A stretch of 64,000 bases of DNA from a virus (Duplodnaviria > Heunggongvirae > Uroviricota > Caudoviricetes), in the IMG/VR virus record IMGVR_UViG_2778261161_000002; one strand, given 5' to 3'. The translations under genes were made by a program, and so were the position numbers. The notes below the pieces were generated by a model. The model saw only the letters and a list, made by a program, of their open reading frames with translations, was not told the origin of the DNA and searched no databases. The stretch's first letter is position 1. Each line of letters begins with the position of its first letter. This document shows positions 51,456 to 58,833 of this stretch, in pieces.

Positions 51456-51740
51456 ATGAAGAAAATAGATTTCACTTACTCTGCTGCCACAATCCAGCGA
51501 CGTTTCAGTCTCATAAGGGAAGTGGAACTATCAAAAAACTGGTATCAAATTCTACTGGATGAAGAGTTTTCACTGATGGTTATAGCAGAAAAATTGGCTA
51601 TGCCGAATGACCGGCACAAGGTCATAGCCAGCCTGGATCTGGTGACAAACAGATACTGGGAATCCGAGGAACTACTTGAAGTTGGCTTGATACGCGAGAT
51701 GATAGAACAGGCTGTTCCCCTCCACTTACAGCAACCATAA
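51456..51740 (+). CDS. hypothetical protein
   Basis: 94 aa ORF. Confidence 0.4.
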   Translation: MKKIDFTYSAATIQRRFSLIREVELSKNWYQILLDEEFSLMVIAEKLAMPNDRHKVIASLDLVTNRYWESEELLEVGLIREMIEQAVPLHLQQP

Positions 51741-51876
51741 TTGAAAGGTCTTAACGATAGTCTGCCACGAATAGTTACTTTCACTGCCTAAAGTTATTTA
51801 ATTGCATTACAAAGTGTAAATTAGTAACATTAGAATCTCACACAGCACTATAACTATATGTTTTTTATGTAAAAGG

Positions 51877-52236
51877 ATGATAATCGTGGCTACTAAAATT
51901 AAACTTGAAAACCCTCAAACTGGCGAATCAATCACCGGTTTTTATGGTTTTTCCTGGACTACATTCTTGTTTGGTGCTTTTCCAGCTTTGTTCAGGAAAG
52001 ACTTTATAACTTTTATTGGGGTATTCGTAGTGATGCTGATACTGGCATTCCTCACAGCCGGAATTGGCCCGTGGATTGCCTCATTTATCTGGGCGTTCAT
52101 GTATAATAAATATTTCACCGTAAATAAGATAAAACAAGGCTTCATTTTTGCTGGTTCTCACACAGAAAATGAGTTGGCTGCTAGCAAGCTAGGATTGTCA
52201 TTAAATCAAAACAACTGCAAAACTATTACCGAGTAA
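51877..52236 (+). CDS. two-TM inner membrane protein (DUF2628-like)
   Basis: GFYGFSWTTFLFGAFPALFRKDF motif and two hydrophobic helices; AT-rich; start may be GTG 51886. Confidence 0.45.
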   Translation: MIIVATKIKLENPQTGESITGFYGFSWTTFLFGAFPALFRKDFITFIGVFVVMLILAFLTAGIGPWIASFIWAFMYNKYFTVNKIKQGFIFAGSHTENELAASKLGLSLNQNNCKTITE

Positions 52237-52276
52237 TAGCCAAAAAGCAGGCTTAATAGTAAGCCTGCTATGTCAA

Positions 52277-53098
52277 TCACGAATCTCTCTGACAATTCAG
52301 AAACATAAACGCCCGCTTGTCTGTTAAATCCGTAACATAATACTCTCTCATGCCTGTAGGTTTTATTCTACGAGCATATACAAACTTATGAACTGGTTGT
52401 TTTTCCCCATAACTTACATCAGTCCTAAATTCATCAACCACGCTACCATCTTTTTCGACTTCCTTCCTCACCAGCTTATTTTCTAATGCTGGCTTTAATT
52501 CGTCCATGCCACTAAAAGCATCCTGGCCTGTACTATTGCCTCGATTTCCGCGCGGCAAATCCCAGGAGAAATAAGTGCCATAGTCAGTAATCACACGATC
52601 CCAGACTCCGGTATCCCCCATATAGTTAGAGCGCTTTCCATTGTAGGTTACAGCCACTTTACAGGAGTACGTTTCTTCATTCCCTCCAGCCTTACTCGCT
52701 GTGGTTGCAGGGATATTTTGGATAGATGCGCTTACGTCATCTTGCGTTAATTCCTCAACTGGAGCAAATTCATATATGGGTGTGCCGAGGCTATTTAAAT
52801 ATAACTTATATCTAACCCTAAGCGCACTTCCATCTGAGAATTCATACGTTCCCAGGCATTGGAGCTTATTTTTTTCTCTTATCTCATTGATCTGATTATA
52901 AGCATCAATTACAGAGATTGCTTCCTGATCGTCCTTCAGCAGTTCATTATAATCATCAATTAACATCTGTCTGGTTTTAGGGGCATTGCAGTCAATTTTG
53001 CTAAAATCATAAGCAAAGGCAAATGTGGGAACAGAGAGAGCAACAACAGTAGCAAGTATTGTTGAGGAACATCTTTTTCCATTTTTTATAAAAAACAT
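52277..53098 (-). CDS. secreted protein of unknown function
   Basis: 273 aa from Met with GGAG RBS; signal peptide ending AFA; AT-rich. Confidence 0.45.
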   Translation of the reverse strand: MFFIKNGKRCSSTILATVVALSVPTFAFAYDFSKIDCNAPKTRQMLIDDYNELLKDDQEAISVIDAYNQINEIREKNKLQCLGTYEFSDGSALRVRYKLYLNSLGTPIYEFAPVEELTQDDVSASIQNIPATTASKAGGNEETYSCKVAVTYNGKRSNYMGDTGVWDRVITDYGTYFSWDLPRGNRGNSTGQDAFSGMDELKPALENKLVRKEVEKDGSVVDEFRTDVSYGEKQPVHKFVYARRIKPTGMREYYVTDLTDKRAFMFLNCQRDS

Positions 53099-53393
53099 TT
53101 CATTAACTCCATACTTTACCATCTTAGCCGCGAGCGCGGTCCCTAAAACCATTAACTTCACTGCACCGTTCCTTCATGCAATCAAAATGACTTTTATGTT
53201 ATAAAAATAATCAGCCAAATCAACATGATTTAGGCCAAATTTCTGTCAAAAAATAAAATCCACAAAAAGTGGTTGACACTATTTTGGAAATCACAAACTG
53301 CACATAATCCATCGCGCTAACGGCTCCCGTTGAAGGTTCTTTTGACGATTAACTTTCAGCCGAAGCGCGGTAGGGAGTCATAACGCCAAAGCA

Positions 53394-54411: not shown

Positions 54412-54741
54412 ATGGGCTATAGCAGACTCGACGATAGGTACATTGAAGACGATATTTTTCGTGCGCTGTTTCACCAGGAAATGATTAAGCGGGTATCGGA
54501 GTATCACTCTGATAATTTCCAGTACACGATAAAGATTGATGAAGTATATCGTTCAGACCTTGCAGCCTACAGGGCGTATGGCAATGCAGATTTGCGCTGG
54601 GTATTCCGGGTGCTGGTGGGCCATGAGTCAGAAATGGAAGAAATGCCCGCAGGGACCACGTTAACTCTTCCTGATGTGGCATGGCTGAGGAACAAGATCC
54701 GTGATTACGCAAGCGCGGAACCGGAGATAGAAAATGCCTGA
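54412..54741 (+). CDS. tail protein X-like (LysM-like) protein
   Basis: 109 aa; YRAYGNADLRWVFRVLVGHESEMEEMPAGTTLTLPDV resembles P2 gpX. Confidence 0.35.
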   Translation: MGYSRLDDRYIEDDIFRALFHQEMIKRVSEYHSDNFQYTIKIDEVYRSDLAAYRAYGNADLRWVFRVLVGHESEMEEMPAGTTLTLPDVAWLRNKIRDYASAEPEIENA

Positions 54742-55927
54742 TTTCCTGAAAAACCAGGACGGGCGCTATATCACTGACGGCCTGTCCTCTAAGGACTTCA
54801 CGCGTTTATTCGACCTTATCAGGAAAGAACAAACCCGTAAGCGCCGACAAGCTCACCGGACGCTGACGCCAGGTAGACTGAGGAACAAATCCGCCGAAGA
54901 TATTCTCAAGTTAGGGAAGAAAAAAGGCGGCACGTTCTTCACGCGAGACGACCTGAAAGGTTTCGAAAAGCTACGGAGTAAAACGCGCGAAAAATATGAC
55001 AGCAAGACGGCTGGCATCACATACGCCCAGCTGGTGGCATCCAGCCAGGCAATCGATATTAAGCGTGCAAATAACGCCGTGGATGACGGATCTGGTATCA
55101 AAAGAGCTACACCCGTATCTCTTCGCCACAATGTGATTAATATCCGCGTAGAAGCATCGGATATATCCGTCCACCAGCACCATATCGTCCGGATACGCTT
55201 TGAAGAATGGGAGCAGATGGTTGATGACATCGCAGAAGACGATAAATCAGCTCTCAAAATCACTAAATCACTGTGCGCCGGGCGAGTGTCTTTCGATTGT
55301 GACTGTGGTCGTCATCAATACTGGTATCGTTACATCGCCACTGCGGGTAACTTTGCCCTGGCACCGCCAAAAGAATACGCCTATCCAAAAGTTCGCAACC
55401 CGAAGCTGCAAGGCGTCGCCTGTAAACACGTGATCCACTCAATGACGCGGTTACAGTCCGCCAGTTGGCAAATGAGTATTGCTCGTGCGCTACAAAAGGC
55501 TGCAACGCAAATTGCATTTGGTGACGATCGCCGCCGTACAACCAAACACTTCTCAAAAGAAGACGAGAAGGAGTTTAATCGCAATCGTAGCAGTAAAACG
55601 AACGTTGAAGCCGCCAAACGCGAATGGAGGCTCTATCAGAAGCGCCAGGCAGCTTTAAGTACAAAACTGGCAAAGGACAACGGCAAGATCGACAAACTAC
55701 GTGACCAATTGACCAAGGCCAGAAAGTTGTCAGATGCACAGAAAAAACGGGCGGCAGCAAAAGAAGCGGCCTTGCAACGTGAGAAACAGAAAAACAAGGA
55801 GCTTCAGCAACGCCTTGCCGATCAGTTCGCACTGAAGAAGCAGGCGTTCATTGATGCGCTTGTCATGGCTGGAACACCACCAGCACAAGCTGAAAAAATG
55901 TTCATGGAGTATGTAAAAAAAGCATAA
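54734..55927 (+). CDS. SWIM zinc-finger protein with C-terminal coiled coil
   Basis: 397 aa; CxC...CxH arrangement (FDCDCGRHQ ... GVACKHVIH). Confidence 0.45.
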   Translation: MPDFLKNQDGRYITDGLSSKDFTRLFDLIRKEQTRKRRQAHRTLTPGRLRNKSAEDILKLGKKKGGTFFTRDDLKGFEKLRSKTREKYDSKTAGITYAQLVASSQAIDIKRANNAVDDGSGIKRATPVSLRHNVINIRVEASDISVHQHHIVRIRFEEWEQMVDDIAEDDKSALKITKSLCAGRVSFDCDCGRHQYWYRYIATAGNFALAPPKEYAYPKVRNPKLQGVACKHVIHSMTRLQSASWQMSIARALQKAATQIAFGDDRRRTTKHFSKEDEKEFNRNRSSKTNVEAAKREWRLYQKRQAALSTKLAKDNGKIDKLRDQLTKARKLSDAQKKRAAAKEAALQREKQKNKELQQRLADQFALKKQAFIDALVMAGTPPAQAEKMFMEYVKKA

Positions 55928-55960
55928 ACCACACATAGCCTAGCTGCCTAGGCTAGGCTT

Positions 55961-56689
55961 TCATCTTTTTGAAAAATCAATTTCCGTTTTATCAAATAAA
56001 TTTGAAATATCAGCAACCAATTTATTAAAATCATGATCGCCATTATAAAGCGAAGTCTTCTTTATTGCCATTACAAAATCATATAACTTTTCTGGGGAGT
56101 CAATACCAACCCCTCTACTTTTAAAAAGCTCAATGATAACTCCAACATCATCATATAATAACTTTATTGCCGCCATAATCTCTTTTTGCTGCCTAAGCAA
56201 TCTCTCAAGTTCATTTTTATTTTCATCCATAATTCTTTTGTTGAATTGTGTATCATTAATACTTTTTATTATTTCAGTCTCTTTTATTTGCAACGCCTTT
56301 CTTTTATTTTGATCCATGTCGGCATCCAAATACCTTATCTCTGTATATATTTTACTTGTTAGCTTTGATACGCAAAGAGTGACAATCGGAGCTGCAATTG
56401 ATGCAATAATTCCAAAAATAAATGGCAAGCAAAAATGATAAAGCCAAGGAGACAAAACGCCTTCATAAACTAGAGGAATCTTACCTCCAACAAATGTTAC
56501 AGATAAAGTATATAGGATATCATCCTTTGACTTCATCAATATTAGTATATCTTTCCAATTAATAATTAGAAAAGAAATTAATATATATGCAAACACTTTA
56601 TTAAAAAGCTTGTCTTTTATGGCATCTCCAAAAGATACTTTTATTAGATCATTTTCAGTCAATTTTTCTGTTGATGAATCTGTATTCAT
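55961..56689 (-). CDS. AT-rich two-TM membrane protein with long helical C-terminal domain
   Basis: 242 aa; TM helices about residues 33-53 and 80-105; very low GC; no family recognised. Confidence 0.6.
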   Translation of the reverse strand: MNTDSSTEKLTENDLIKVSFGDAIKDKLFNKVFAYILISFLIINWKDILILMKSKDDILYTLSVTFVGGKIPLVYEGVLSPWLYHFCLPFIFGIIASIAAPIVTLCVSKLTSKIYTEIRYLDADMDQNKRKALQIKETEIIKSINDTQFNKRIMDENKNELERLLRQQKEIMAAIKLLYDDVGVIIELFKSRGVGIDSPEKLYDFVMAIKKTSLYNGDHDFNKLVADISNLFDKTEIDFSKR

Positions 56690-56751
56690 ATAAACTACCG
56701 TGATTTCTAATATCTATTTTATGAAAATAGCGGTCATCCAGACCGCCAAAC

Positions 56752-57111
56752 TCAAATACCAACCAAGCTTTCAAGAGGAATGCCAAACTGGGAATGTAAA
56801 CGGCGAATCATAGGTAACGTCAAATTTCGTGTCCCATTTAGCACTTCGTAAACACGATTTGACTTACCAATCGCCGGTTCCAGATCCTTCACGGTCAGCC
56901 CTTGCTGTTCCATACGGAATTTAATGGCCTCAATAGGTGATGGTGGCTCAATTGGGTAATGTTTTTTCTCGTACTCCTCAATGAGAAGACTCATAACCTC
57001 AAAGAAATCACCTTCCGGAGTATTCATTTCCGGTTCGTTATCGAACATCGGTTCGACCGCACGCAGTGCGGCCTCATAATCTTGTTCTGTACGGATAGGT
57101 TTAATGTTCAT
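56752..57111 (-). CDS. HigA-family (COG5499-type) HTH antitoxin-like regulator
   Basis: 119 aa; C-terminal GLTVKDLEPAIGKSNRVYEVLNGTRNLTLPMIRRLHSQFGIPLESL parallels E. coli HigA. Confidence 0.6.
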   Translation of the reverse strand: MNIKPIRTEQDYEAALRAVEPMFDNEPEMNTPEGDFFEVMSLLIEEYEKKHYPIEPPSPIEAIKFRMEQQGLTVKDLEPAIGKSNRVYEVLNGTRNLTLPMIRRLHSQFGIPLESLVGI

Positions 57112-57123
57112 TAATTACAAAGG

Positions 57124-57150
57124 AAAGCCCACTTGCTAAGTGGGCTTTTT
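57124..57150. terminator. intrinsic terminator hairpin (bidirectional)
   Basis: AAGCCCACTT-GCTA-AAGTGGGCTT with flanking T/A runs. Confidence 0.6.
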
Positions 57151-57167
57151 GTATGTGTTTTACTATA

Positions 57168-57506
57168 TCAGGCTGCTTTTTTATTCAGGTTCCGCTGAGA
57201 AATAAATTTTTCAGCAGTATTGATACGACTTAACTCTTCCTGAACGCGCATATCATTTTCGACTTCCCACAGATCTACTGCGGTCTGAAGATTAATCCAA
57301 AAATCTACAGAAGTATCGAATGCTTTTGCCAGGCGATATGCCATATCCATCGTTAGCTTACGATTATTATTAACAAGAGCACTTACGGTGTTACGATGAA
57401 CATGAAGTATTTCTGCTAACTCGTTGATCTTCAGCTCTAACGGCTCCAGGTATTCGTACAGCAGGATATCACCTACGGTCGTCGGTTTTCTGGTTGCCTG
57501 TTTCAT
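57168..57506 (-). CDS. higA: HigA antitoxin (XRE-family HTH)
   Basis: 112 aa; canonical HigA HTH pattern. Confidence 0.8.
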   Translation of the reverse strand: MKQATRKPTTVGDILLYEYLEPLELKINELAEILHVHRNTVSALVNNNRKLTMDMAYRLAKAFDTSVDFWINLQTAVDLWEVENDMRVQEELSRINTAEKFISQRNLNKKAA

Positions 57507-57576
57507 TTTTTGCCCTTACTAGCGTGCGTATTAAGTGGACTCTGGTCAGAACCCGGTCCGTAACCGGGTATCTGTT

Positions 57577-57879
57577 TTAGTATTTGTGAGGGTCGAGATA
57601 CAAGTCCTCGGCCTTTCCGTTAACCCACTTAAAAATTAACCTATATTGCTTATTCACCCTTACTGATGAATAGCCATTTAGCTTCCCTGACAGTTCCTCA
57701 TACCGATTACCTGGTGGTGATCTTAAATCCTTACAGGTAGTTGCGGCATTGATAATGTCCAACTTCCGTGACAATGTCATATGAATATCAGGAGGTATCT
57801 TTCTATGTGGTGTTGAAAATTCAAAAAAATCATCAAGCCACGCATCCCTGAAATCCTTTATGTTAATTTTTTTGGTCAT
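57577..57879 (-). CDS. higB: HigB toxin (RelE/ParE superfamily killer protein)
   Basis: 100 aa; F.D.WL..FFE ... GNRYEELSGKL ... QYRLIF killer-protein signature. Confidence 0.8.
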   Translation of the reverse strand: MTKKINIKDFRDAWLDDFFEFSTPHRKIPPDIHMTLSRKLDIINAATTCKDLRSPPGNRYEELSGKLNGYSSVRVNKQYRLIFKWVNGKAEDLYLDPHKY

Positions 57880-58041
57880 TAGTCATTTGATCCTCCGTGA
57901 TGATTACCGAATGCCATAACTATAGCGCACCGTTGCACTGTGCGCAAGTGCATTTTATGAATTCCCCCTCCTTCATCCAAAATCACAATCTCCCGAAAAT
58001 CTTCCTTTCGATACCTGACAGATCGACCTTTGAGGATGCTT

Positions 58042-58833
58042 ATGGGCCGTTTTGACGAATGGTTTGCTGACGATGTAAACCTGGCAAGTAAGGAGTCAGA
58101 ACATGACTGCACGCAGAGAGAAACGCCAGCGCCGATTGAAGCGAATGCAGGAGGCGCGCCGGAACATGGCAATACCAGTTCGGATTCATTCAGCATTCTG
58201 GAAGAGCAACCCGCCGCCAAAGCTGATAGCCATGATAATTTTGCTGATAGCAACGGTGGCCTTACTCCGGACGCTGGCGAATCAAATATAGCCACACTTC
58301 CACCTTCCCTGGCTGGCAGAGAACCGACTCCACAGCTAAAAGCACGCTATAACGGGCATAAAGCCTTTAACGACCAAATCCGCGCAGACTGGATGCTGAT
58401 TATTGAATCCAGCCCAGACGCGTTTCAGGCTCTCTTATATCGACCAGATGTTGGCACATATGGGGTAGTCAGCGACGAAACAGGAGAAGAGTCATTCACT
58501 GAACTGGATAACAACCAGCGCGAACTGACTTACCAGGAACCTGAAATCGTTTATGTGCTGGATAACCCGGACGGGCGTGACTCTCTCCATGCGATTGACG
58601 CAGACGGTGAGCAGGATGGCTTAACCGATGATGTTCTGATTCTGCGTATTGCAGCAAATAACGTCCCCGTCGGATCAATTCTTGAATGGAATGAAGAGAT
58701 GGTAAACGGCGTAGCCCGCCGCTGGTGGTACGTGCACCGTATTTTTAGCTACGGCACACAGCATGTTGGTTCGCTTTACTACTGCATACCGGCCAGGAAT
58801 TTTGATACGACTCAAAACGGAGTGATCGAATGA
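58042..58833 (+). CDS. putative tail/baseplate protein
   Basis: 263 aa from Met with GAGGA RBS; in cluster ending with spike gene. Confidence 0.4.
   Translation: MGRFDEWFADDVNLASKESEHDCTQRETPAPIEANAGGAPEHGNTSSDSFSILEEQPAAKADSHDNFADSNGGLTPDAGESNIATLPPSLAGREPTPQLKARYNGHKAFNDQIRADWMLIIESSPDAFQALLYRPDVGTYGVVSDETGEESFTELDNNQRELTYQEPEIVYVLDNPDGRDSLHAIDADGEQDGLTDDVLILRIAANNVPVGSILEWNEEMVNGVARRWWYVHRIFSYGTQHVGSLYYCIPARNFDTTQNGVIE

What the first reader, a model, noticed from the sequence alone, without database searches (positions are those of the whole stretch)
55961..57111. AT-rich HTH + two-TM membrane protein gene pair: candidate undescribed toxin/abortive-infection module
56752..57111 encodes a HigA-type (COG5499-like) HTH protein, separated by a terminator from the canonical higBA pair, so it is not the higB antitoxin. 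Immediately downstream, 55961..56689 encodes a 242-aa protein with two TM helices and a long charged helical tail. That gene is far more AT-rich than the flanking tail genes and matches no family I recognise. An antitoxin-like regulator coupled to a small membrane effector is the layout of several abortive-infection and toxin-antitoxin systems.
Basis: partly seen in the sequence, partly recalled or inferred. Interest (0 to 1): 0.7.

Follow-up and report, generated by a model that had tools for sequence, protein, structure and literature searches.

The report
Orphan HigA antitoxin beside hypervariable membrane gene
The two genes are real but are probably not a toxin-antitoxin pair: the HTH gene is a HigA antitoxin left behind when its own toxin gene was swapped out, and the AT-rich membrane gene is a stand-alone, highly variable prophage accessory gene of unknown function that may act in phage-phage conflict.

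Summary
The window is a phage D6-like P1-type phage-plasmid (99.8% identity). Both ORFs exist as described.

**orf72** (56752-57111, minus strand) is a YgjM/COG5499-type HigA. In sibling D6-like elements the same 119-aa protein (97-98% identical) sits 3 nt after a PF09907 HigB toxin. Here that toxin gene and its operator-bearing promoter were replaced (57119-57979) by an unrelated PF05015 higB/higA cassette with a terminator. orf72 is therefore an orphan antitoxin. About two thirds of related plasmids carry it truncated to 66 aa.

**orf73** (55961-56689, minus strand) encodes 242 aa with two hydrophobic segments and a long helix, at 29% GC.
- It is intact in nearly all D6-like loci examined, whatever lies upstream: either HigBA type, a truncated HigA, or umuDC.
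- A terminator-like hairpin separates it from orf72.
- Its alleles are only about 40% identical, while the flanking genes are 97-98% identical.
- Within allele classes dN/dS is 0.08-0.65.
- Distant homologues occur as single genes in P2-like and lambdoid prophages and other islands, never with a HigA.
- It has no Pfam, PADLOC, NCBIfam, PDB or fold match.

The pair hypothesis is not supported. A stand-alone exclusion or abortive-infection role for orf73 is plausible but untested.

The parts
55961..56689 (-). orf73 homologue: a 242-aa inner-membrane protein. It has two hydrophobic segments (about 32-52 and 86-108), a long cytoplasmic helix or coiled coil to about 191, and a small C-terminal helical region. 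It is a hypervariable accessory gene of unknown function.
   Evidence: ORF; hydropathy and GC 29.2%; AF2 helices 13-43, 45-64, 81-191, 199-211 and 219-234, pLDDT 71; phrog_8191 only; alleles at median 39.8% identity against 97-98% for flanking genes; dN/dS 0.08-0.65 within allele classes; wider family of 106 representatives.
56752..57111 (-). orf72 homologue: a 119-aa YgjM/COG5499-type HigA antitoxin (N-terminal toxin-binding region plus C-terminal HTH_3). Here it is orphaned, with neither its cognate PF09907 HigB nor its operator.
   Evidence: Pfam HTH_3; PDB HigA 5ycl/5ifg at 8e-8; PD-Lambda-2_B positions 1-119 of 402 at 4e-43; 97-98% identical to the antitoxin that follows PF09907 HigB in L003-L005; no PF09907 HigB in the window or in the D6 record.
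56728..56748 (-). Terminator-like hairpin (GC-rich stem of 8 pairs followed by UAUUUU) between orf72 and orf73.
   Evidence: fold -16.6 kcal/mol, z = -2.15. An equivalent hairpin is present in the locus types examined that keep a full-length HigA, and is deleted in the truncated variant.
57124..57148 (-). Strong intrinsic terminator ending the PF05015 higB-higA cassette, 13 nt upstream of the orf72 ATG.
   Evidence: fold z = -4.7, with 0 of 200 shuffles as stable.
57119..57979 (-). Replaced segment. In this window a promoter, PF05015 higB, TIGR02607 higA and a terminator occupy the place where sibling elements carry an operator-bearing promoter and PF09907 higB.
   Evidence: blastn homology to L003/L004/L005 stops at 57980 and resumes at 57118; gene content of the loci.
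57168..57506 (-). HigA antitoxin, 112 aa (TIGR02607), partner of the upstream PF05015 HigB.
   Evidence: NCBIfam antidote_HigA at 7.9e-30; Pfam HTH_3.
57577..57879 (-). HigB-like toxin, 100 aa (PF05015).
   Evidence: Pfam HigB-like_toxin at 4.4e-35.
55936..55959 (.). Bidirectional terminator-like hairpin between the convergent orf73 and tail gene 25.
54734..55927 (+). P1 gene 25 homologue (tail protein), the conserved right-hand flank of the island.
   Evidence: In P1 itself gene 25 is followed 3 nt later by gene 7, with no island.
58030..58833 (+). P1 gene 7 homologue (tail protein), the conserved left-hand flank of the island.

Best explanation
The 2.1-kb minus-strand island between tail genes 25 and 7 of this D6-like phage-plasmid holds two independent things.

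**(a) An orphan antitoxin (shown).** orf72 is the antitoxin of a YgjN/YgjM-type HigB-HigA pair. The toxin gene and its autoregulated promoter were replaced by a different (PF05015/TIGR02607) higBA cassette. orf72 sits directly behind that cassette's terminator, with no promoter or operator of its own, and is on a decay path: it is truncated in most relatives.

**(b) A stand-alone membrane gene (context shown, role inferred).** orf73 is an autonomous single-gene accessory element ('moron'). I infer that its product inserts in the inner membrane as an N-in/C-in hairpin. The membrane domain is conserved and rich in polar residues, with family-invariant N44, P89, G93 and P101. The long cytoplasmic helix probably drives oligomerisation. 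The highly variable C-terminal part probably sets specificity.

I judge the most likely role to be lysogen-expressed protection against other phages or related phage-plasmids, either superinfection exclusion at the membrane or abortive infection by membrane permeabilisation. orf73 would act alone, without being neutralised or regulated by orf72.

Shown: the gene history, the independence from orf72, the hypervariability with purifying selection, and the moron contexts. Inferred: topology, oligomerisation and the defence or exclusion role.
For: **Orphan antitoxin.** The operator TCCCA-N3-TGGGA occurs upstream of PF09907 higB in all type I loci, in lambdoid prophages and in a 42-kb plasmid, but the window has none. 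The junction census gives 18 of 112 plasmids with an intact orphan and about two thirds with the 66-aa truncation.

**Independence of orf73 from orf72.**
- orf73 is intact downstream of PF09907 HigBA, PF05015 HigBA plus orphan HigA, a truncated HigA, and umuDC.
- The HigB-HigA pair occurs without orf73 in E. coli chromosomes and plasmids and in phage JK004.
- Hairpins lie between the two genes.
- There is no co-variation: orf72 pairs are at median 97.9% identity, orf73 pairs at 39.8%.

**Single-gene family.**
- The profile search found 106 representatives at E<=1e-3 with the same architecture.
- One sits alone on the opposite strand between gpV and gpS/gpR in P2-like prophages.
- One sits between the replication and nin/lysis genes of a lambdoid prophage.
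- Others lie in other islands.

**Conflict-type signature.**
- GC is 29% against 49% in the flanks.
- dS between allele classes is saturated (1.1-2.7) inside a backbone only 2-4% diverged, while dN/dS within classes is 0.08-0.65.
- Alleles are shuffled relative to the TA type.
- The gene stays intact in a degraded Klebsiella grimontii prophage remnant.
- P1 has no insertion at this site.
- Accessory and defence hotspots within P2 tail genes are described in bioRxiv 10.64898/2026.02.27.708500.
Against: - No functional evidence of any kind exists for orf73. It has no match to any PADLOC model; a single distant member hits a CBASS 2TM effector model at 4e-4. It has no structural analogue beyond generic long helices.
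- Expression in this window is doubtful. Two terminators lie between the higBA promoter and orf73, and only weak promoter-like and Shine-Dalgarno-like sequences precede it.
- In every D6-like element orf73 does lie next to a YgjM-type HigA gene or its remnant. In another plasmid family a homologue lies 380 nt downstream of a TacA-TacT pair. Some link to TA modules therefore cannot be excluded.
- Hypervariability partly reflects the low constraint on coiled coils.
- The AF2 model is of modest quality (pLDDT 71, pTM 0.30).
Confidence: 0.6

Rival explanations
1. Three-component HigB-HigA-membrane protein system, analogous to PD-lambda-2 (HigB-like A, HigA-like B, accessory C required for defence). 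orf73 would be the accessory or effector third component. The window would then carry a degenerate version that has lost the toxin.
For: - Sibling loci have PF09907 HigB, HigA and orf73 in the same order and orientation.
- Their HigB hits PD-Lambda-2_A at 2.6e-42 and their HigA hits the PD-Lambda-2_B N-terminus at 7e-43.
- The same three-gene order holds in a lineage whose backbone is only about 70% identical and whose HigB and HigA are only 27-29% identical.
- PD-lambda-2 needs its third gene for defence (PMC9519451).
- Another family member lies just downstream of TacAT.
Against: - The HigB-HigA pair is a self-contained bicistron elsewhere, in about 150 E. coli chromosomal places and in plasmids.
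- orf73 stays intact and under purifying selection after loss of the toxin and after truncation of HigA, which is the majority state.
- A terminator-like hairpin lies between HigA and orf73.
- orf73 alleles assort independently of the TA type.
- Wider family members are solitary.
- The B homologue lacks the peptidase, and the C component is unrelated.
Confidence: 0.15
2. One reading: orf72 (an HTH antitoxin or repressor) and orf73 (a membrane toxin) form a two-gene toxin-antitoxin or abortive-infection module.
For: The two genes are adjacent and on the same strand. orf72 belongs to an antitoxin family, and orf73 has the 2-TM layout of many membrane effectors.
Against: - orf72's cognate partner is identified as a PF09907 HigB.
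- The variant with the HTH deleted is the commonest and keeps orf73 intact.
- orf73 occurs with umuDC, or alone, elsewhere.
- The two proteins do not co-vary.
- The window has no operator.
- A hairpin lies between the genes.
Confidence: 0.08
3. orf73 has no conflict role. It would be a lysogenic-conversion or housekeeping-type membrane protein for the element itself (for example helping lysis timing, DNA ejection or entry, or plasmid maintenance), or a nearly neutral passenger.
For: - It always lies inside or next to tail and late gene clusters in D6-like and P2-like elements.
- A few members give weak coiled-coil or spanin-like PHROG hits.
- There is no defence-model match.
Against: - It is transcribed opposite to the late operons and is AT-rich.
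- It is absent from P1 at the same junction.
- Deep allelic polymorphism sits in a 97-98% conserved backbone, and the neighbouring tail genes do not co-vary.
- It also occurs in non-phage islands.
- Purifying selection argues against a neutral passenger.
Confidence: 0.17

Closest known systems
E. coli K-12 HigB/HigA (YgjN/YgjM; PF09907 toxin with COG5499-type antitoxin; PDB 5ifg, 5ycl)
   Same: orf72 aligns over residues 6-112 with solved HigA. It has the same N-terminal region plus C-terminal HTH_3. In sibling loci it directly follows a PF09907 HigB and an operator palindrome.
   Different: In this window the toxin gene and the operator are missing. The protein is 119 aa rather than 138 aa.
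PD-lambda-2 (Vassallo et al. 2022, PMC9519451): HigB-like A, HigA-HTH-peptidase B, P4-beta-like C
   Same: orf72 matches the first 119 positions of the B model at 4e-43. The sibling HigB matches the A model at 2.6e-42. A third gene follows in the same orientation.
   Different: There is no ImmA/IrrE peptidase domain, because the protein ends at model position 119 of 402. There is no A component in the window. The third gene is an unrelated membrane protein with no hit to the C model.
Orphan antitoxins / 'anti-addiction' modules (concept from my own knowledge: Saavedra De Bast et al. 2008)
   Same: An intact antitoxin gene is retained without its toxin on an element that competes with siblings which still carry the toxin.
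   Different: Nothing has been tested. orf72 sits behind a terminator with no promoter, and it is truncated in most relatives, which suggests decay rather than selection.
Prophage single-gene membrane exclusion/Abi proteins (e.g. P22 SieA/SieB, HK97 gp15, T4 Imm) and 2-TM effectors of CBASS and similar systems (from my own knowledge)
   Same: It is a small inner-membrane protein encoded as a moron on the opposite strand to late genes. It is AT-rich and highly polymorphic, and its N-terminal TM region is followed by a cytoplasmic domain.
   Different: There is no sequence or fold similarity to any of them. One of 25 family members hits a CBASS 2TM effector model at 4e-4. No phenotype is known.

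Membership tests
YgjM/COG5499-type HigA antitoxin | C-terminal Xre/HTH_3 DNA-binding domain | tested here: met
   Pfam HTH_3 at 3.4e-5 over residues 63-115, above the gathering score.
YgjM/COG5499-type HigA antitoxin | Full-length homology to characterised HigA, including the N-terminal toxin-binding part | tested here: met
   PDB 5ycl/5ifg at E=8e-8 over residues 6-112; phrog_1373 at 4e-43.
YgjM/COG5499-type HigA antitoxin | Cognate PF09907 HigB toxin encoded immediately upstream | tested here: not met
   Absent from the window and from the D6 record. Present 3 nt upstream of the 97-98% identical gene in L003-L005 and others.
YgjM/COG5499-type HigA antitoxin | Autoregulatory operator in the operon promoter | tested here: not met
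   TCCCA-N3-TGGGA palindromes lie upstream of higB in sibling and prophage loci. The full 15-nt site has no match in the window at up to 2 mismatches. Only a non-conserved 1-mismatch core site lies inside orf72. Actual binding is not testable here.
PD-lambda-2 defence system | Component A: HigB-like toxin | tested here: not met
   No PF09907 or PD-Lambda-2_A homologue in the window. Present only in sibling loci.
PD-lambda-2 defence system | Component B: HigA-like HTH fused to a C-terminal ImmA/IrrE peptidase | tested here: not met
   orf72 covers model positions 1-119 of 402 only. The ORF ends at 119 aa.
PD-lambda-2 defence system | Component C: P4 beta-like protein required for defence | tested here: not met
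   orf73 and its alleles have no PADLOC hit.
Two-gene type II TA / Abi pair (orf72 with orf73) | Conserved co-occurrence of the two genes across homologues | tested here: not met
   orf73 occurs with a truncated HigA, with umuDC, or alone. HigA occurs without orf73.
Two-gene type II TA / Abi pair (orf72 with orf73) | Co-transcription or tight coupling of the two genes | tested here: inconclusive
   They share a strand and are 62 nt apart, but a terminator-like hairpin lies between them. No transcript data are available.
Two-gene type II TA / Abi pair (orf72 with orf73) | Toxicity of one product neutralised by the other | not testable with these tools
   Needs expression experiments.
Known membrane defence effectors, holins/spanins, and TraS-type entry exclusion | Significant profile or fold similarity | tested here: not met
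   - PADLOC: none for orf73; 1 of 25 family members hits a CBASS 2TM effector model at 4e-4.
- Pfam TraS: 4 of 13 members, best E=0.031, below threshold.
- Rz-like PHROG: 2 of 13 at 0.003.
- Foldseek PDB and BFVD: E>1.

The most novel reading that the evidence does not exclude
orf73 defines a previously undescribed family of single-gene inner-membrane anti-phage or exclusion proteins with deeply diversified alleles. The conserved 2-TM domain would be the effector and the variable cytoplasmic coiled-coil/C-terminal domain the specificity determinant. The family is carried in moron sites of P1/D6-like, P2-like and lambdoid prophages of Enterobacterales. It may give allele-specific exclusion between competing phage-plasmids.
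Probability: 0.3. Interest if true: 0.6.

Novelty: new member of a known kind. Interest (0 to 1): 0.38.

Why it matters
**For annotation.** The 'second HigA' of phage D6 and its relatives should be read as an orphan remnant of a displaced HigBA pair. It is neither a spare antitoxin for the neighbouring HigB nor a regulator of the membrane gene. The locus is also a clean natural example of cassette replacement followed by stepwise decay of a toxin-antitoxin module.

**For discovery.** The membrane gene is a defined, testable candidate. D6-like phage-plasmids almost never score for known defence systems (bioRxiv 10.1101/2025.09.12.675607). Yet this gene shows the population signature of a conflict gene, with ancient alleles recombined into a nearly clonal backbone, and it has solitary relatives in two other prophage types. 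If it excludes phages or rival phage-plasmids, it would add a small single-gene membrane system to the prophage defence repertoire. If it does not, the finding is an ordinary moron of unknown function.

Tried and rejected
- **Family and fold assignment for orf73.** Nothing informative came from any of these:
  - Pfam, NCBIfam and PADLOC on orf73; Pfam and PHROGs on 13 homologues; PADLOC and Pfam on 25 family members. Only coiled-coil noise appeared.
  - The PDB sequence profile matched designed helical bundles only.
  - Two AF2 models reached pLDDT 60 and 71.
  - Foldseek against BFVD and PDB gave E>1.
  - The afdb50 library was unavailable.
- **tblastn in the phage collection.** Two divergent alleles found only D6 itself.
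- **Klebsiella IncFIB plasmid as an independent context.** Rejected. The copy carries about 50 nt of phage gene 7 and is a captured fragment of a phage-plasmid island, with orf73 split by IS903B.
- **HigA operator upstream of orf73.** None found. One 1-mismatch core site lies inside the orf72 coding sequence and is not conserved.
- **An own promoter for orf73.** Only weak matches, no more than shuffled sequence gives.
- **Rfam scan of 55000-58500.** One sub-threshold Trp_leader match, which is simply the terminator hairpin.
- **The D6 genome paper** (Gilcrease and Casjens 2018) could not be read.
- **Literature.** Four further searches and five papers read turned up no description of this membrane protein.
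Full report
**What the window is.** The region 55900-57950 is 99.8% identical to Escherichia phage D6, a P1-type phage-plasmid. In the D6 record the four minus-strand genes are:
- orf73, hypothetical;
- orf72, 'HigA family';
- orf71, 'HigA family';
- orf70, RelE-family toxin.

They lie between the homologues of P1 tail genes 25 and 7, which are on the plus strand. In P1 itself gene 7 starts 3 nt after gene 25. The four genes are therefore a 2.1-kb insertion specific to the D6 lineage, antisense to a late operon.

**Checking the observation.** The ORFs are at the stated coordinates.
- orf72 (119 aa) matches three references:
  - Pfam HTH_3;
  - solved E. coli K-12 HigA structures (5ycl/5ifg, E=8e-8, residues 6-112);
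  - the first 119 of 402 positions of the PADLOC PD-Lambda-2_B model at 4e-43.
- A strong terminator (57148-57124, z = -4.7) separates orf72 from the upstream higA.
- orf73 (242 aa) has two hydrophobic segments, at 32-52 and 86-108, and a charged 132-residue tail. The better AF2 model (pLDDT 71, pTM 0.30) makes residues 81-191 one continuous helix followed by two short helices.
- orf73 is 29.2% GC (GC3 23%), against 49-50% for genes 25 and 7.
- orf73 matches nothing in Pfam, NCBIfam or PADLOC, and only the unannotated phrog_8191.

**What orf72 is.** Contexts of orf73 homologues, 23 IMG/VR loci and plasmid records were typed by tblastn. Every D6-like element carries the island at the same gene 7 | gene 25 junction, in one of four layouts:
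- Type I: PF09907 HigB (100 aa), then the 119-aa HigA 3 nt later, then orf73. Loci L003-5, L026-28, L030 and L032.
- Type I': a 27-29% identical version of the same pair (103 and 139 aa), then orf73, in Enterobacter/Klebsiella-lineage elements. Loci L007, L010, L031 and L037.
- Type II, the window's layout: PF05015 HigB, TIGR02607 HigA, a terminator, the 119-aa HigA, then orf73.
- Type III: as type II, but the 119-aa HigA is cut to 65-66 aa.

Several results show how type II arose and that orf72 is an orphan.
- The window's orf72 is 97-98% identical to the type I antitoxin.
- Nucleotide homology between the window and type I loci stops at 57980 and resumes at 57118, 7 nt before the orf72 ATG. 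Exactly the promoter plus PF09907 higB was exchanged for the PF05015 higBA cassette with its own promoter and terminator.
- The type I promoter carries two TCCCA-N3-TGGGA palindromes. The same palindrome lies about 26 nt upstream of homologous higB genes in lambdoid prophages and in a 42-kb plasmid. The window has no such site.
- No PF09907 HigB is encoded in the window or in the D6 record.
- A junction-spanning query against PLSDB found 112 plasmids. Eighteen have the intact orphan. In the evenly spaced listing, about one sixth are type I and about two thirds are the truncated type III. The P0002 cluster, which is the orf73 allele of type III, is also the largest, with 535 member sequences.

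orf72 is therefore an orphan antitoxin, and most relatives have already lost its HTH half.

**Is orf73 functionally tied to orf72?** Six lines of evidence say no.
1. The close HigB(100)-HigA(119) pair, at about 79% nucleotide identity, is a self-contained bicistron. It occupies about 150 chromosomal places in E. coli, in lambdoid prophage immunity regions, and also occurs on other plasmids, with no orf73-like gene downstream. The 103/139-aa version sits at a different locus in Cronobacter phage JK004, again without orf73.
2. orf73 stays intact downstream of a truncated HigA (type III). In Klebsiella grimontii prophage remnants it sits downstream of umuD-umuC, with no HigA at all, although the adjacent gene 25 and mat are degraded.
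3. In 14 E. coli and Salmonella loci the median pairwise protein identity is 97.4% for gene 7, 97.9% for the HigA, 98.0% for gene 25, and 39.8% for orf73. Within orf73 it is 52% for the membrane half and 27% for the tail. A binding partner would be expected to co-vary.
4. orf73 allele classes assort independently of the TA type. The pYU07-18_89-type allele occurs with types I and II, and the L005-type allele occurs with types I and II.
5. A terminator-like hairpin lies between the HigA gene and orf73 in the locus types examined that keep a full-length HigA; the type III deletion removes it.
6. A profile search of 1.84 billion representatives found 106 proteins at E<=1e-3, of which 32 are at <=1e-10. 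They are 200-300 aa long with the same layout, and all are annotated 'hypothetical' in Enterobacterales. Their contexts vary:
   - one sits alone on the opposite strand between gpV and gpS/gpR of P2-like prophages;
   - one sits between the replication and nin/lysis genes of a lambdoid prophage;
   - others lie in assorted islands or chromosomal sites;
   - one lies 380 nt downstream of a TacA-TacT pair on plasmids of about 92-97 kb.

None of these has a HigA neighbour.

**What can be said about orf73.**
- It is a real gene under constraint. dN/dS is 0.08-0.65 between close alleles, while dS between allele classes is saturated at 1.1-2.7, inside a backbone that differs by only 2-4%. The alleles are therefore old and were brought in by recombination, not evolved in place.
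- Recombination breakpoints fall inside the gene, after the conserved membrane half.
- Conserved positions cluster in the membrane domain and include polar residues:
  - among the 15 closer homologues (window, D6-like alleles and close relatives) the invariant positions include K25, D26, K27, N30, K31, S39, N44, W45, D57, T61, H85, P89, G93, S97, P101 and T104;
  - across the wider family only N44, P89, G93 and P101 remain invariant.
- This pattern suggests that the membrane part is more than an anchor and that the tail carries specificity.
- Five features are the usual signature of lysogen-expressed conflict genes:
  - antisense placement inside late or tail clusters of three unrelated prophage types;
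  - low GC;
  - deep polymorphism;
  - absence from P1 at the same junction;
  - retention in a decayed prophage.
- Accessory and defence hotspots within P2 tail genes have been described.

I therefore favour a stand-alone superinfection-exclusion or abortive-infection role acting at the inner membrane. This is inference only. No defence model, fold or paper supports it directly. Expression in this window is uncertain, because two terminators precede the gene and no convincing promoter is present.

**Rivals.**
- A three-part HigB-HigA-orf73 system modelled on PD-lambda-2 keeps some weight, about 0.15. Type I loci match the A model and the N-terminus of the B model very strongly, the three-gene order is kept in a diverged lineage, and PD-lambda-2 needs its third gene for defence (PMC9519451). 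However, the peptidase domain and the C homologue are missing, and orf73 clearly outlives the TA.
- A non-conflict role for the element itself, or as a passenger, gets about 0.17.

**Comparison with known systems and novelty.** orf72 belongs to the YgjM-type HigA family by sequence, but it fails two context criteria, cognate toxin and operator, so it is best called an orphan antitoxin. The island is not a PD-lambda-2 system, because all three component criteria fail in the window. orf73 belongs to no described family. Its relatives form an unannotated family that includes phrog_8191 and is weakly related to phrog_13369 and phrog_4780.

Overall this is an ordinary product of cassette turnover in a prophage accessory island, plus one uncharacterised and unusually polymorphic membrane gene that is worth a simple phenotypic test.

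**Scores.** Interest is 0.38. The proposed module is not supported, but the gene history is clear and orf73 is a reasonable candidate for a single-gene defence or exclusion function.

Noticed in passing
window 57119-57979 (junctions at 57118 and 57980): This is a clean cassette replacement. The PF05015 higB/TIGR02607 higA pair, with its own promoter and terminator, occupies exactly the place of the operator-bearing promoter plus PF09907 higB found in sibling D6-like elements. Both TA states coexist in the population.
   Followed up: yes
L002, L012-L019, L033 (window equivalent about 56620-56930): In the commonest variant of the island, orf72 is truncated to 65-66 aa (only the N-terminal, toxin-binding part remains). 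The hairpin and the first 70 nt or so of orf73 are replaced by another allele's 5' end, which has a better Shine-Dalgarno sequence.
   Followed up: partly
L006 (Klebsiella quasipneumoniae IncFIB conjugative plasmid NZ_AP022144) 3977-6732: Large Klebsiella plasmids (about 55 records) carry a captured fragment of the island, including about 50 nt of phage gene 7. HigB-HigA is intact but the orf73 homologue is split by IS903B.
   Followed up: partly
L034-L036 (Klebsiella grimontii chromosome CP067380 and related contigs): A degraded D6/P1-like prophage remnant keeps an intact orf73 homologue directly downstream of umuD-umuC. Gene 25 is frameshifted and mat is reduced to a fragment. A Cap4-nuclease gene and a HicAB pair lie nearby.
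   Followed up: partly
L003 4246-4289; L040/L041 2670; L042 2666: The palindrome TCCCA-N3-TGGGA is conserved upstream of PF09907 higB genes in phage-plasmids, lambdoid prophages and a 42-kb plasmid. It is probably the HigA operator of this subfamily.
   Followed up: partly
window 56781-56793 (-): A one-mismatch copy of the operator core (TCCCAGTTTGGCA) lies inside the 3' end of orf72, about 100 nt upstream of the orf73 start. It is coding sequence and is not conserved in L003/L004, so it is probably chance.
   Followed up: partly
L053-L055 (Citrobacter/Salmonella contigs, 66-95 kb): A distant orf73 family member (P0039) lies 380 nt downstream of a TacA-TacT (GNAT toxin) pair. This is a second case of the family sitting next to a type II TA module of a different kind.
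   Followed up: no
L044-L046 (Klebsiella pneumoniae P2-like prophages): A family member (P0034, indexed in 42 blocks of the contig collection) is a solitary opposite-strand gene between the baseplate spike gene gpV and the tail completion genes gpS/gpR. This mirrors the antisense position between tail genes in D6.
   Followed up: partly
window 51650-53300: This is a second AT-rich stretch (GC 0.34-0.39). It holds a 119-aa membrane protein (51877-52236, +; phrog_4915, unknown function) and a simB-like gene (52277-53161, -; the D6 record annotates it as a superimmunity accessory function). It looks like another accessory island.
   Followed up: no
window 57077-57153 (+): A sub-threshold Rfam Trp_leader match (21.6 bits against a gathering score of 41, E=0.41). 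It coincides with the bidirectional terminator hairpin after higA and is taken as chance.
   Followed up: yes
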